Source: Escherichia phage 121Q. Taken from it: 64,000 nucleotides of DNA. This document shows positions 9,910-12,573 of the stretch, in pieces. Each line of letters starts with the position of its first letter. Positions within the stretch are counted from its first letter, which is position 1. The notes beneath the pieces are model-generated. The model saw only the letters and a program-made list of their open reading frames with translations. It had not been told where the DNA came from and searched no databases. The stretch is taken from the sequence record NC_025447.1. The stretch is one strand, 5' to 3'. The position numbers were made by a program, and so were the translations under genes.

Positions 9910-10596
9910 ATGGCTACAATGCTTGATCGATATGGCGTACCGCTCGCTGGCGGTGGTCGTATCTCTATGAAACAACCAAAAGCAAAATACAAATTTCGTG
10001 TTATTTTCTTTGGTTTTGGTACTAATGATGATGGTAATATGATTACACTAGACACCAATACAGTTGGGGCAGTATCTGTATCACATGAAAATGTTACTGT
10101 TCATAGTTACAACAGTTCTGCACACTATAAAGGTAAGTACACTTGGGATACAATTGATGTTGCTTTCCGTGACTCAGTAGGTAATGCTTCTGCTAAAGCA
10201 CTATACAACCAAATGCGTAAAGAATTCAACTACTACAGTCAAGAATCTCGCATGACAGATTCACAATTTAAATTTGAAATGTGGATTCAAGAGCTTGATG
10301 GTTCTAATAGTGAAAATACAACAAACTTGTTTGAAGGAACATTGAGTACTTGGGTATGTCAAGGTTGCTTTATTGAATCCAGCAACTTTGGTGATTGGGA
10401 TTATTCCTCAAGTGAAGCACAAGTTATTTCAATGACTGTTCAACCAGATGGTTGTGCTAAATTGGGTCCAAATGGCGAAGCGTTCGGTGATGAAGTTAGT
10501 GGCTTCGGTAATCCATCAACTGCTACCTCTATTTCTGGTGCACAAACTAATATTAGTAGTACTACTCTACCAGATAGTAACTTCTACGAAAATTAA
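9910..10596 (+). CDS. tail tube-family protein (gp19-like), paralog 1
   Basis: Follows sheath gene; N-terminal RYGVPLAGGGRISMKQPKAKYKFRVIF and FRDSVGNASAKAL shared with next ORF. Confidence 0.5.
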   Translation: MATMLDRYGVPLAGGGRISMKQPKAKYKFRVIFFGFGTNDDGNMITLDTNTVGAVSVSHENVTVHSYNSSAHYKGKYTWDTIDVAFRDSVGNASAKALYNQMRKEFNYYSQESRMTDSQFKFEMWIQELDGSNSENTTNLFEGTLSTWVCQGCFIESSNFGDWDYSSSEAQVISMTVQPDGCAKLGPNGEAFGDEVSGFGNPSTATSISGAQTNISSTTLPDSNFYEN

Positions 10597-10617
10597 TTTT
10601 ATTTAAACTTAATATAT

Positions 10618-10647
10618 AGCCTCGAATCTATTCGGGGCTTTTTTTAT
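10618..10647 (+). terminator. rho-independent terminator after tube gene
   Basis: AGCCTCGAA-tcta-TTCGGGGCT then TTTTTTT. Confidence 0.6.
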
Positions 10648-10690
10648 GCTAAATAAAGTATAATGCCTTATAAAATAAAAAGAGGTTGCT

Positions 10691-11467
10691 ATGGCAAATA
10701 ACATGATTAATAAATATGGCGTTCCTTTACCATCGGGGCGTAATCGTTCAATGCTACAACCGAAAGCAAAATACAAGTTTCGTGTTATTGTGTATAATTT
10801 CGGTACTGATATAGATGAACGTGATCACATCGCATTAGATGTTGATAAAATTGATAGACCTACTGTAACATTTAGTACTCATAAACTATATCAATTTACT
10901 ACTAATACTTCCTATATAGGTAGTCATGATTGGGAACCAATTACAATATCTATCCGTGATTCAGTTGGTAATGCATCAGCAAAAGCATTATCACGACAAT
11001 TACAAAAACAACTTGACTTTCAACGTAGAATAACTTCCAGAAATGACCAAGATTATGGTTCTTATAAATTTGGTTTGGTTATACAGATGTTGAGTGGACG
11101 TAACTCAGATGATACACTAGGAAATCTAGGAAGAGATACTCTAGTAGATGCTGCAACTGCTGCAACAAATAATTCTGGCTTAGTAAATGCAGTAGATCAA
11201 TTTATTGGTGGTTCTTCATATAACAGTGCTGGTGTTATGGAATACTTTGTTTTAACCGGATGTGTTATTCAAAACATATCATACGATTCATTAGATTATA
11301 GCTCAAGTTCTCCAGTTGAAATGGTAGTTACTATCAAACCAGATAATTGTATACAATTTGATAATATTGAAGAAATGTATAGTACCAGAATTAATTCACT
11401 TTTACCTGAAAATGTCAATCAAGGTTTAGATATCATTGATCGTGTTTTTGGTAGTGTAGGATTTTAA
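10691..11467 (+). CDS. tail tube-family protein, paralog 2
   Basis: Shares KYGVPL..QPKAKYKFRVI and IRDSVGNASAKAL with 9910-10596. Confidence 0.5.
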   Translation: MANNMINKYGVPLPSGRNRSMLQPKAKYKFRVIVYNFGTDIDERDHIALDVDKIDRPTVTFSTHKLYQFTTNTSYIGSHDWEPITISIRDSVGNASAKALSRQLQKQLDFQRRITSRNDQDYGSYKFGLVIQMLSGRNSDDTLGNLGRDTLVDAATAATNNSGLVNAVDQFIGGSSYNSAGVMEYFVLTGCVIQNISYDSLDYSSSSPVEMVVTIKPDNCIQFDNIEEMYSTRINSLLPENVNQGLDIIDRVFGSVGF

Positions 11468-11478
11468 GGAGATAATGA

Positions 11479-12573
11479 ATGAGTGATTTTTTTGATTCAT
11501 TTGTCAGTACTGGTACAAGTATTGTAAATGGCGTTATTGATAATATAAACATTGTTCGTGAACCTGCTTTTCAGAACTATAATGCTGCACAACGTGTGTT
11601 TGGTACAGCAGGTGAAATGGGGTTTTCATTTTATAATTTACCAAAATTCAAAAATAGTTTTATCATAGAATTTGTTTTAACACCTTTTGCAAAAAACTTT
11701 ATTAAAACTCAATTACCAGATACACATACAGATTTTGATGTTAATAATGTATCATGTTTTGTTAAAGATGTAACTTTACCAAGTTTTTCATTTAATATTG
11801 AAACAGTAAACCAATATAACAAAAAACGACTAGTTACTGGTGACATTGTTTACAAACCAAGTAATGTCGTTTTTTATGATACCGTTGATGGTGCTGGTTA
11901 CTTACTAATGGATGCATATAGAAAGTTTTATTATGGTGATTTCTTTGATAAAAATCCACAGTCATATCGAAATGATGTTCTAAGTACACCTGAAAACTTT
12001 AATGGTTTAGGTGGTAACTGGGGACGTTCAGTAATGAACAATGGAAACTACGATAATCAGTACTTTTTCAAATCAATTAACATATATGAGATTGATAATG
12101 AAACATATACTGTACATAACATGATAAATGTATTCATTGAAGACGTACAATTAGAAACCAAATCTATGGAAAGTGAAGCAGACCCTTCATTAATATCGTT
12201 AACTATGCGATATGAAGCATGTAACAACTTCGGACCAGAAGGATATTTGAGCATTGGTGTACCAACTATGGAAATAGCACAACTAATAACAGACACAGAA
12301 GGTCTTGGTGTTAGTGGGTTTTTTAAGTATTTTGGTGAATTAGACGACAAAACCAAAGGAATTTTAACAATTGGTAAAATTATCCGAGCAGGTACGTCAG
12401 TTAGTGATATAATAAGTAGTGCTGGTGATATATTGCGTGGCGACATTACTCCTGACACAATTCGAAACATAGGTTCTGCTGTAACCAGAGGTGCTAACGC
12501 CATAGGGTTTGGTAGTTTGGTTTCTGAAGCAAGTTCAAAATTCGGATTAGGTAACATTTTAGGAGATTTTTAA
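11479..12573 (+). CDS. hypothetical structural protein, possibly tube initiator/cap (gp48/gp54-like)
   Basis: 364 aa, adjacent to tube paralogs; weak tube-like C-terminal pattern ([11 protein letters not shown]); by position and size only. Confidence 0.35.

What the first reader, a model, noticed from the sequence alone, without database searches (positions are those of the whole stretch)
9910..12573. Three consecutive tube-family genes including a recent paralog pair
The 228-aa and 258-aa proteins share N-terminal (R/K)YGVPL...QPKAKYKFRVI and central (F/I)RDSVGNASAKAL motifs, so they are paralogs; a third 364-aa gene follows. In T4 the tube, tube initiator (gp54) and tube cap (gp48) share one fold but are scattered; here they appear clustered directly after the sheath gene.
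Basis: partly seen in the sequence, partly recalled or inferred. Interest (0 to 1): 0.35.

Follow-up and report, generated by a model that had tools for sequence, protein, structure and literature searches.

The report
Three tail-tube paralogs after sheath gene
In this Rak2-like jumbo coliphage, the three genes after the tail sheath gene are all old, diverged copies of the tail-tube protein: most likely one main tube subunit and two minor tube-end ring proteins, which is an ordinary arrangement for contractile tails and is already labelled this way in public records.

Summary
The window is an Asteriusvirus (PBECO4/121Q/phAPEC6/SP27-like) jumbo coliphage. The three ORFs are real: T1 9910-10596, T2 10691-11467, T3 11479-12573.

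All three belong to the tail-tube family. T1 and T2 are 41% identical (E 7e-35). T3 is a remote homolog (profile-profile E 6.5e-15). AlphaFold models of T2 and T3 match T4 gp19, gp3, a gp54 homolog and AFP/PVC tube chains.

The pair is not recent. T1 and T2 form two deep clades across all Rak2-like phages, and the identical peptide motifs use different codons. More distant relatives (PA5oct, Atu_ph07) carry one tube gene plus a T3 ortholog, always followed by a gp4-like head-completion gene.

T1 is most likely the major tube subunit. It is a single-gene unit between conserved terminators, it is the most conserved of the three, and it lacks T2's 32-aa insertion.

T2 and T3 are probably single-ring tube-end proteins (initiator, adaptor or terminator). 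Which end each occupies stays unresolved, and T3 is not a detectable member of the gp48 family.

Several public records already read "tail tube protein x3", although the primary papers on this clade never identified the tube. The finding is ordinary and of low interest.

The parts
6795..6801 (+). TAAATAA motif, candidate late-promoter core, 56 nt upstream of the sheath start codon
   Evidence: 11 of the 22 TAAATAA occurrences in the window lie 10-70 nt upstream of a same-strand gene start, against about 0.6 expected. That it is a promoter is an inference.
6851..9514 (+). Tail sheath gene (887 aa)
   Evidence: Pfam Phage_sheath_1C at 1.7e-14 and phrog_10581 'tail sheath' at E 0. The phAPEC6 ortholog gp277 was assigned to the 25 sheath rings by cryo-EM and MS.
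9521..9550 (+). Intrinsic terminator-like hairpin plus T-run directly after the sheath gene
   Evidence: 9-bp stem with 5 GC pairs and a T-run. Folding energy -16.5 kcal/mol, z -3.9. Annotated by ARNOLD in phage G17. Present at the same position in RaK2 and in the divergent contig L071.
9869..9875 (+). TAAATAA candidate late-promoter core, 41 nt upstream of the T1 start codon
   Evidence: The spacing to the start codon is the same as for T2.
9910..10596 (+). T1, 228 aa: tube-family protein, proposed major tail-tube subunit
   Evidence: phrog_4542 'tail tube protein' at 5e-86 and phrog_45 at 5e-4. T4 gp19 hits phrog_4542 at 5e-10. It is the most conserved of the three in 6 of 7 genome comparisons. 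It is a single-gene unit between two terminators. Its orthologs are virion proteins: RaK2 gp042 with 5 peptides, phAPEC6 gp275c with 2 peptides. Only about 27% of its sequence falls in tryptic peptides of 7-30 aa.
10618..10646 (+). Intrinsic terminator-like hairpin plus T7 run directly after T1
   Evidence: Folding energy -13.9 kcal/mol, z -3.3. Annotated by ARNOLD in G17. A hairpin plus U-run follows the first tube gene in RaK2, L071, Vibrio phage 2.275.O and PA5oct as well, each with a different stem sequence (z -4.7 to -6.2).
10650..10656 (+). TAAATAA (within CTAAATAA) candidate late-promoter core, 41 nt upstream of the T2 start codon
   Evidence: No such motif precedes T3 or the gp4-like gene.
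10691..11467 (+). T2, 258 aa: ancient paralog of T1, proposed minor adaptor-ring tube protein
   Evidence: 41% identical to T1. phrog_4542 at 8e-80. The AF2 model has the tube fold: TM-score normalised to target about 0.7 against T4 gp19, cyanophage A-1(L) tube and PVC/AFP tube chains; the best hit is a gp54 homolog, 9f4a_BQ, at 7.9e-9. Orthologs are virion proteins (RaK2 gp043, phAPEC6 gp274c). Absent from the PA5oct and Atu_ph07 lineages.
11135..11230 (+). T2-specific 32-aa insertion (residues 149-180), predicted as two helices at low confidence
   Evidence: Present in all T2 orthologs and absent from T1 and from the single-copy outgroup tube proteins in the alignment. The AF2 secondary structure shows helices at 143-159 and 162-172.
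11479..12573 (+). T3, 364 aa: remote tube-family protein with a tube-fold core (about residues 57-270) plus N- and C-terminal extensions; proposed tube-end ring, either terminator or initiator
   Evidence: phrog_13438 at 8.5e-227, phrog_4542 at 1.2e-5, phrog_45 at 6.6e-4. hhalign against the T1/T2 profile gives E 6.5e-15. The AF2 core has pLDDT 70-90, and Foldseek hits T4 gp3, gp19, a gp54 homolog and a probable Afp5 chain. Orthologs exist in PA5oct (gp286) and Atu_ph07 (gp126). The phAPEC6 ortholog gp273c is in virions with 7 peptides. An 11-nt gap with an AGGAG ribosome-binding site separates it from T2.
12573..13001 (+). gp4-like head completion gene (TnsA-like N-terminal domain); its start overlaps the T3 stop (TAATG)
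   Evidence: Pfam Tn7_TnsA-like_N at 2e-16 and phrog_218 'head closure' at 1.8e-40. The overlap is visible in the sequence. T3-gp4 adjacency is conserved in RaK2, L071, Atu_ph07 and a very distant phage contig (in PA5oct one 151-aa gene intervenes).
39313..40656 (-). gp15-like tail sheath stabiliser/terminator (447 aa); context only, the expected docking partner of a gp3-like tube terminator
   Evidence: Pfam T4-gp15_tss at 2.3e-20 and phrog_227 at 3e-16, tested on the E9.1 ortholog. The window ORF is listed.

Best explanation
Three diverged members of the tail-tube (gp19/Hcp-fold) family are encoded in a row after the sheath gene of a Rak2-like jumbo myophage. T1 is the major tube subunit. 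It should polymerise as stacked hexameric rings inside the sheath, in numbers similar to the sheath protein (about 150 copies for the 25 rings seen in phAPEC6). It is made from its own single-gene unit, bounded by terminators, as the sheath gene is. T2 and T3 are co-transcribed with the gp4-like head completion gene and are low-copy, single-ring specialisations of the tube fold sitting at the ends of the tube. This is the same division of labour as T4 gp19 versus gp54/gp48/gp3, or Afp1 versus Afp5/Afp7. T3 is the ancient universal partner: the cassette tube-T3-gp4-like predates the Rak2-like clade. T2 is a later but still ancient duplicate of the tube gene, restricted to the Rak2-like clade, with a 32-aa helical insertion and a different C-terminal arm. 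My tentative placement is T3 at the head-proximal end, as a gp3-like terminator under the gp15-like ring, and T2 as the baseplate-proximal adaptor ring, gp54/Afp5-like. The reverse placement is nearly as likely. Shown: the ORFs, their homology, the fold of T2 and T3, the age of the duplication, the synteny, the terminator hairpins, and virion presence of the orthologs. Inferred: copy numbers, ring positions, and promoter function.
For: Family membership: PHROG hits; T4 gp19 hits the T1/T2 family at 5e-10; T3 versus T1/T2 profile E 6.5e-15; Foldseek probability 1.0 to tube, terminator and initiator chains. These are the only detectable tube-family genes in the window, in RaK2 20-112 kb and in E9.1 115-195 kb, and none of 10 baseplate/neck-region proteins scanned hits phrog_45 or phrog_230. 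T1 as the major tube: a terminator hairpin directly after the first tube gene is conserved in five lineages with different stem sequences; T1 is the most conserved of the three in 6 of 7 comparisons; T1 lacks the insertion, like the single-copy tube proteins of the outgroups; RaK2 MS found 5 peptides for gp042, where the window T1 sequence allows only about 7 detectable ones. T2/T3 as a minor co-expressed set: an 11-nt gap with a ribosome-binding site between T2 and T3, the T3 stop overlapping the gp4-like start, and no promoter-like motif before T3 or gp4. Ancient cassette: PA5oct, Atu_ph07 and a distant contig carry tube-T3-gp4-like. All three orthologs are virion proteins in phAPEC6. Lean on placement: T3's best PDB hit is gp3 and T2's is a gp54 homolog, and a gp15 ortholog that would need a gp3-like partner is present.
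Against: No quantitative stoichiometry exists. In phAPEC6 the peptide counts run T3 7, T2 3, T1 2, opposite to the proposed abundances, although T1's tryptic map explains its low count. T2 has its own promoter-like motif, so its expression may not be low. Foldseek E-values for tube, initiator and terminator chains differ by less than about 10-fold, so they do not assign roles. hhalign to T4 gp19, gp54, gp3 and gp48 is not significant. T3 is twice the size of gp3 and its architecture (core plus N- and C-terminal extensions) looks more like gp54/gp48. T1 itself was not modelled. T3 does not appear in the returned passages of the RaK2 virion MS table. Both AF2 models are only moderately confident (mean pLDDT 59 and 65).
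Confidence: 0.65

Rival explanations
1. One reading: T1 is the tube (gp19), T2 is the gp54-like initiator and T3 is the gp48-like cap, so both T2 and T3 sit at the baseplate end, and the T1/T2 pair arose recently.
For: T2's best PDB hit is a gp54 homolog, 9f4a_BQ, at 7.9e-9. T3 has the same length as T4 gp48 (364 aa) and, like gp48 and gp54, carries extensions around a tube core. The best, though non-significant, T4 alignment of T3 is to gp54, in register over 127-129 columns at E 0.017-0.03. No other tube-initiator candidate was detected by sequence in the baseplate module.
Against: 'Recent' is refuted. gp48's family, phrog_230, is not hit by T3, and hhalign to gp48 has probability 0.2%. The genes lie in the neck/sheath/tube module next to gp4-like, about 25 kb from the baseplate genes, which are on the other strand. 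T3's top PDB hit is the terminator gp3. This mapping also leaves no tube-family partner for the gp15 ortholog.
Confidence: 0.2
2. A heteromeric or segmented tube: T1 and T2 are both abundant trunk subunits, as mixed hexamers, alternating rings or distinct tail segments, and only T3 is an end protein.
For: T1 and T2 give similar peptide counts in two independent virion proteomes (5 vs 3 in RaK2, 2 vs 3 in phAPEC6). Both have a TAAATAA motif at an identical 41-nt spacing from the start codon. The pair has been co-retained throughout the Rak2-like radiation. phAPEC6 tails show three special annular positions along the tail.
Against: A conserved terminator separates T1 from T2. T2 carries a 32-aa insertion and a different C-terminal arm that would disturb equivalent packing. 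T2 evolves faster than T1. Single-copy relatives build tails without it. To my knowledge no contractile tail has a two-protein trunk.
Confidence: 0.1
3. The real tube protein is elsewhere, namely the abundant RaK2 gp106w/gp107w-type proteins proposed by the RaK2 authors, and T1-T3 are accessory tail or neck proteins that merely share the fold.
For: RaK2 gp106w and gp107w are abundant, beta-rich and of suitable size, with 13 and 11 peptides and about 55% coverage.
Against: gp106w and gp107w fall in phrog_9326, with no similarity to any tube family (hhalign probability 0.08% for gp106w). T1/T2 are the family that T4 gp19 hits and they lie next to the sheath gene. Low MS coverage of T1 is explained by its three giant tryptic peptides. 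The fold of gp106w/gp107w was not tested.
Confidence: 0.03

Closest known systems
T4 tube-fold paralog set: gp19 (tube), gp54 and gp48 (baseplate-tube junction), gp3 (tube terminator)
   Same: One fold is reused for the trunk subunit and for single rings at the tube ends. gp19, gp54 and gp3 share one PHROG (phrog_45), and gp19 also hits the T1/T2 family. The T2 and T3 models match gp19, gp3 and a gp54 homolog. The tube gene follows the sheath gene.
   Different: Here all detectable paralogs are contiguous and lie next to a gp4-like gene, whereas T4 has three loci. Only three members are detectable rather than four. No member of the gp48 family was found. No one-to-one orthology could be established. 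T1 and T2 are larger than gp19 (228 and 258 aa against 163 aa).
AFP/PVC extracellular contractile injection systems: Afp1/Pvc1 (tube), Afp5/Pvc5 (first tube ring), Afp7/Pvc7 (initiator)
   Same: A close tube paralog (Afp5/Pvc5, comparable to T2) and a more diverged extended tube-fold protein (Afp7, comparable to T3) are encoded in the same operon as the sheath and tube genes. Chains that are probably Pvc5 and Afp5 (9qgl_5A, 6rao_F) rank slightly above the Pvc1 and Afp1 chains for T2 and T3. The chain identities are my inference from the chain labels.
   Different: There is no significant sequence relationship. No LysM domain was detected in T3. These are phage genes coupled to a head-completion gene.
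PHROG families phrog_4542 and phrog_13438 ('tail tube protein') as applied in public records (PBECO4 RefSeq NC_027364, E9.1, JP4, K64-1, CBB, PA5oct, Atu_ph07)
   Same: They cover exactly these genes and their orthologs, and several records already read 'tail tube protein (x3)'.
   Different: Those labels are automatic and do not distinguish roles. The primary papers on RaK2, phAPEC6, CBB, PA5oct and Atu_ph07 did not identify a tube protein.

Membership tests
Tail tube / Hcp-fold superfamily (T4 gp19-like) | Tube fold (beta-sandwich with flanking helix) shown by structure comparison | tested here: met
   T2 model: Foldseek probability 1.0, TM-score normalised to target 0.70-0.78 against T4 gp19, A-1(L), PVC, AFP and Algoriphagus tube chains. 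T3 core (pLDDT 70-90): probability 1.0, TM-score 0.5-0.64. T1 was not modelled; its fold is inferred from 41% identity to T2.
Tail tube / Hcp-fold superfamily (T4 gp19-like) | Sequence-profile membership in a tube family | tested here: met
   T1 and T2 hit phrog_4542 at 5e-86 and 8e-80. T3 hits phrog_13438 at 8.5e-227, plus phrog_4542 at 1.2e-5 and phrog_45 at 6.6e-4. T4 gp19 hits phrog_4542 at 5e-10. However, there are no Pfam or NCBIfam hits, including the Pfam T4 gp19 family.
Tail tube / Hcp-fold superfamily (T4 gp19-like) | Gene next to the sheath gene, and product present in virions | tested here: met
   Gene order. Published MS of orthologs: phAPEC6 gp275c, gp274c and gp273c; RaK2 gp042 and gp043.
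Tail tube / Hcp-fold superfamily (T4 gp19-like) | Assembles as hexameric rings forming the DNA conduit | not testable with these tools
   Needs cryo-EM or multimer modelling.
T4 gp48 (baseplate tail tube cap, phrog_230) | Sequence-profile similarity to gp48 | tested here: not met
   None of T1-T3 hits phrog_230. hhalign of the T3 and T1/T2 profiles against gp48 and its relatives gives probability 0.2%. The equal length of 364 aa is a coincidence as far as the tests show.
T4 gp54 (baseplate-tube junction / initiator) | Sequence-profile similarity to gp54, and gene in the hub/tape-measure cluster | tested here: inconclusive
   T3 versus gp54 aligns in register but is not significant (E 0.017-0.03). 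T2's top PDB hit is a gp54 homolog, but only marginally ahead of true tube chains. The genes are not in the baseplate module.
T4 gp3 (tail tube terminator) | Similarity to gp3, and presence of its partner gp15 | tested here: inconclusive
   gp3 (9mkb_AC) is the best PDB hit for T3 and the third best for T2, but by small margins. hhalign is not significant. A gp15 ortholog is present (Pfam T4-gp15_tss at 2.3e-20). T3 is twice the length of gp3.

The most novel reading that the evidence does not exclude
T1 and T2 are both stoichiometric trunk subunits, so Rak2-like jumbo phages would build a two-protein tail tube, either as mixed hexamers or as distinct segments (perhaps related to the three annular fibre-bearing positions seen on phAPEC6 tails). 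T3 would be a widespread (more than 2,000 sequence clusters), previously unrecognised class of tube-end protein whose C-terminal arm can carry surface-exposed carbohydrate-binding domains.
Probability: 0.1. Interest if true: 0.55.

Novelty: new member of a known kind. Interest (0 to 1): 0.22.

Why it matters
The value is modest. The result identifies the tail tube gene set of the Rak2-like jumbo phages (Asteriusvirus, Alcyoneusvirus and relatives). The original RaK2 paper could not find the tube gene and tentatively assigned the role to unrelated proteins, and the phAPEC6, CBB, PA5oct and Atu_ph07 papers leave it unassigned. It also defines a conserved cassette (sheath, terminator, tube, terminator, T3 coupled to a gp4-like gene) that could guide annotation and the fitting of future cryo-EM maps of these tails. 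It does not reveal a new mechanism, because reuse of the tube fold for end rings is textbook for T4, AFP/PVC and related systems.

Tried and rejected
1. Pfam and NCBIfam scans of T1-T3 gave no tube family hits.
2. Sequence search of T1 and T3 against the PDB found nothing meaningful.
3. hhalign of the T3 and T1/T2 profiles against single T4 gp19, gp54 and gp48 sequences was not significant. I then repeated it against gp19, gp54, gp3 and gp48 profiles built from IMG/VR relatives, and every probability was below 3%. The T4-side profiles were too shallow, so the closest T4 paralog could not be named.
4. A Foldseek search of T3 against BFVD returned its own family followed by a mix of gp19, gp3 and 'baseplate wedge' names, with no discrimination of role.
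5. I tested the RaK2 authors' candidate tube proteins gp106w and gp107w. They belong to phrog_9326 and show no similarity to tube families, so I rejected them as tube candidates on sequence grounds. Their fold was not tested.
6. I looked for hidden tube-family genes in the baseplate and neck modules with PHROG, Pfam, PDB sequence search and my own HMMs. None were found, but several virion proteins of unknown fold remain, at 243, 749, 497 and 366 aa.
7. I considered gene conversion as the cause of the identical motifs and rejected it from codon usage.
8. The T4-type late promoter TATAAATA is depleted in the window, 1 occurrence against 10.4 expected, so it was not usable.
9. The apparent map-order similarity to T4 genes 1-3-2-4 was not used as evidence, because the direction of transcription relative to that order is opposite.
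Full report
**What the window is.** The region 6851-12573 is 99.5-99.9% identical in DNA to Escherichia phages SP27, phAPEC6, PBECO4, E9.1 and others. These are Asteriusvirus, the E. coli branch of the Rak2-like jumbo myophages, with genomes of about 350 kb. Several of those records (PBECO4 RefSeq, E9.1, JP4, SHEFM2K, BAU.Micro_ELP-22) already annotate the three genes as 'tail tube protein (x3)'. Older records call them hypothetical or structural proteins.

**Check of the observation.** The ORFs are exactly as stated: T1 at 9910-10596 (228 aa), T2 at 10691-11467 (258 aa) and T3 at 11479-12573 (364 aa). They follow the 887-aa sheath gene (6851-9514) and precede a gp4-like head completion gene (12573-13001).
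- T1 and T2 are 41% identical over 147 aa (E 7e-35) and share the quoted motifs.
- T3 shows nothing significant by BLASTP. A profile of 35 T3 homologs nevertheless aligns to a profile of 34 T1/T2 homologs with probability 98.4% and E 6.5e-15 over 169 columns.
- HMMs of each family find the other family's members, and nothing else, among all ORFs of the window. The same holds for RaK2 20-112 kb and E9.1 115-195 kb.

**Fold.**
- AlphaFold2 on the T3 alignment gave a confident core (residues about 57-270, pLDDT 70-90) flanked by low-confidence N-terminal (1-56) and C-terminal (273-364) extensions.
- The T2 model has mean pLDDT 65 and contains a low-confidence two-helix insertion.
- Foldseek against the PDB returned tail-tube and Hcp-fold chains almost exclusively, at probability 1.0.
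- For T3 the top hits were T4 gp3 (9mkb_AC), the KP1 tube, T4 gp19 (5w5f), T4 baseplate chains, a probable Afp5 chain, and the phiKZ and phiKp24 tube proteins.
- For T2 the top hits were a gp54 homolog (9f4a_BQ), the cyanophage A-1(L) tube, gp3, PVC and AFP tube chains, and gp19, with TM-scores normalised to target of about 0.7.
- Chain identities were checked by sequence: 9mkb_AC is the gp3 tube terminator, 9f4a_BQ is a gp54 homolog, and gp48 corresponds to 5iv5_U and 9f4a_BM.

**Link to T4 by sequence.** T4 gp19, gp54 and gp3 all belong to phrog_45. gp19 also hits phrog_4542, the T1/T2 family, at 5.3e-10. gp48 is in a separate family, phrog_230, which none of T1-T3 hits. Direct hhalign comparisons to T4 gp19, gp54, gp3 and gp48, whether as single sequences or as profiles of IMG/VR relatives, were not significant. 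No one-to-one orthology can be claimed, and membership of the gp48 family was tested and failed.

**Age of the duplication.**
- tblastn with T1 finds two copies per genome in all Rak2-like phages: Asterius-, Alcyoneus-, Mimas- and Eneladusvirus, CBB, XaC1 and a Vibrio phage.
- It finds only one copy in PA5oct-like phages, Atu_ph07, XacN1, RAS14 and Xoo-sp13.
- In a neighbour-joining tree, T1 and T2 orthologs form two deep clades that each span the Rak2-like radiation. The single-copy proteins form a third group.
- The most divergent Rak2-like contig still has gp13-like, dNMP kinase, sheath, then 229-, 257- and 360-aa genes, then gp4-like.
- The identical peptide motifs are encoded with different codons, and the longest shared DNA word is 14 nt.
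- The pair is therefore ancient and kept similar at those motifs by selection. It is not recent and not homogenised by gene conversion.

**Ancestral cassette.** PA5oct has dNMP kinase, sheath, a homing endonuclease, a 206-aa tube gene, a 492-aa gene, a 151-aa gene and then gp4-like. Atu_ph07 has sheath, a 193-aa tube gene, a 328-aa gene and then gp4-like. The second gene in each is a T3 ortholog, with hhalign E 2e-26 and 4e-35. A very distant phage contig has a 198-aa gene, a 535-aa T3-like gene and gp4-like, again with overlapping stop and start codons. An exhaustive profile search found 2,017 T3-family cluster representatives at E <= 0.001. T3 is therefore an old and widespread partner of the tube gene, while T2 is an addition specific to the Rak2-like clade.

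**Expression layout.**
- GC-rich hairpins followed by T-runs sit directly after the sheath gene (9521-9542) and directly after T1 (10618-10639, followed by seven T). Their folding z-scores are -3.9 and -3.3.
- Both are annotated as ARNOLD terminators in phage G17.
- A hairpin plus U-run follows the first tube gene in RaK2, contig L071, the Vibrio phage and PA5oct as well, each time with a different stem sequence.
- T2 and T3 are separated by 11 nt containing an AGGAG site, and the T3 stop overlaps the gp4-like start as TAATG.
- A TAAATAA motif lies 56, 41 and 41 nt upstream of the sheath, T1 and T2 start codons. Half of its 22 occurrences in the window lie 10-70 nt upstream of same-strand gene starts, against about 0.6 expected.
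- T1 is thus a single-gene unit like the sheath gene, while T2, T3 and gp4-like form one unit. Promoter function is inferred, not shown.

**Proteomics from the literature.**
- In phAPEC6 virions, gp275c (T1), gp274c (T2) and gp273c (T3) were detected with 2, 3 and 7 peptides. The sheath gave 36 peptides. The paper never mentions a tube (PMC7247149).
- In RaK2, gp042 (T1) gave 5 peptides and gp043 (T2) gave 3. gp044 (T3) does not appear in the passages returned from the table (PMC3622015, Table S3).
- The RaK2 authors stated that the tube protein could not be identified and guessed gp106w/gp107w. Those two proteins are an unrelated paralog pair in phrog_9326.
- T1's low peptide count is explained by its sequence. 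Only 27% of it falls in tryptic peptides of 7-30 aa, because of three peptides of 44-63 aa. The figures for T2 and T3 are 54% and 75%.
- The CBB, PA5oct and Atu_ph07 papers do not identify a tube protein either.

**Conservation.** Against RaK2, the sheath is 70% identical, T1 80%, T2 73%, T3 77% and gp4-like 60%. T1 is the most conserved of the three in 6 of 7 genome comparisons.

**Interpretation.**
- T1 is most likely the trunk subunit. The reasons are its position, its single-gene unit bounded by terminators, its highest conservation, an outgroup-like architecture without the insertion, and the link between gp19 and its family.
- T2 and T3 are most likely single-ring end proteins, as gp54/gp48/gp3 are in T4 and Afp5/Afp7 are in AFP.
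- Which end each occupies is unresolved.
- For T3 as a gp3-like terminator: its best PDB hit, its universal coupling to the head-completion gene within the neck/sheath/tube module, and the presence of a gp15 ortholog that needs a partner.
- For T3 as an initiator: its size and extension architecture, the best though non-significant T4 alignment being to gp54, and the absence of any other detectable initiator.
- Two long T3 homologs carry C-terminal discoidin domains, which suggests the C-terminal arm can reach the tail surface.

**Verdict.** The arrangement is a normal variant of a well-known principle and is already captured by automatic annotation. Its main use is to fill an annotation gap in the primary literature on Rak2-like phages.

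Noticed in passing
window 39313-40656 (-): A 447-aa gene whose E9.1 ortholog is annotated 'tail sheath' is really a gp15-like tail sheath stabiliser/terminator (Pfam T4-gp15_tss at 2.3e-20, phrog_227). This looks like a mis-annotation propagated from phrog_11196.
   Followed up: partly
window-wide, e.g. 6795, 9869, 10650, 13580, 16211 (+); 42183, 59855 (-): TAAATAA occurs less often than expected overall (22 against about 40), yet 11 of the 22 copies lie 10-70 nt upstream of same-strand structural gene starts. It is a candidate late-promoter core for the phage's gp55-like sigma factor. The T4 consensus TATAAATA is depleted (1 against 10.4 expected).
   Followed up: partly
P0224 and P0268 (T3-family representatives): Some T3-family proteins are 1,100-1,300 aa long and carry C-terminal F5/8 type C (discoidin) domains. 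P0224 also carries a 'non-contractile tail sheath N-terminal domain' (PF23844). The family as a whole has more than 2,000 cluster representatives at 50% identity.
   Followed up: partly
L008 17012-18331 (RaK2 ORF106w and ORF107w): This is another adjacent paralog pair (both phrog_9326) of very abundant virion proteins (about 55% MS coverage). The RaK2 authors guessed these to be the tube. They show no tube-family similarity, and their function and fold are unknown.
   Followed up: partly
L011 (Vibrio phage 2.275.O) 4501-8912: The two tube paralogs are separated by an inserted pectin-lyase-fold gene and a reverse-strand gene. The second copy (196 aa) lacks the T2 insertion and branches at the base of the T1 clade, so it may be an independent duplication or a strongly diverged T2.
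   Followed up: partly
window 9594-9719 (+): A 41-aa ORF lies in the 395-nt spacer between the sheath terminator and T1. It is annotated as a hypothetical protein in E9.1 and phAPEC6 (gp276c).
   Followed up: no
window 18327-21151 (+): This is an AAA/MoxR-like ATPase (441 aa) followed by a 474-aa protein, annotated in RaK2 as N4 gp24-like and gp25-like. The phAPEC6 ATPase gp265c (49.5 kDa, probably the ortholog) was found in virions with 6 peptides. The E9.1 label 'HNH endonuclease' for the second gene looks doubtful.
   Followed up: no
window 44583-54584 (-): A 3,333-aa ORF (annotated 'virion structural protein') lies next to the gp6-like baseplate wedge gene (54634-58095). It is an unusually large baseplate-module protein.
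   Followed up: no
L009 3296-4912 (PA5oct): A Hef-like homing endonuclease gene is inserted between the sheath and tube genes of PA5oct, and RaK2 has a possible homing endonuclease upstream of its dNMP kinase gene. The sheath-tube locus appears to be a recurrent target for mobile endonuclease genes.
   Followed up: no
window 14154-17627 (+): A run of strongly acidic, low-complexity ORFs (for example the D/E-rich 326-aa protein at 16250-17230) is annotated as virion structural proteins in E9.1.
   Followed up: no
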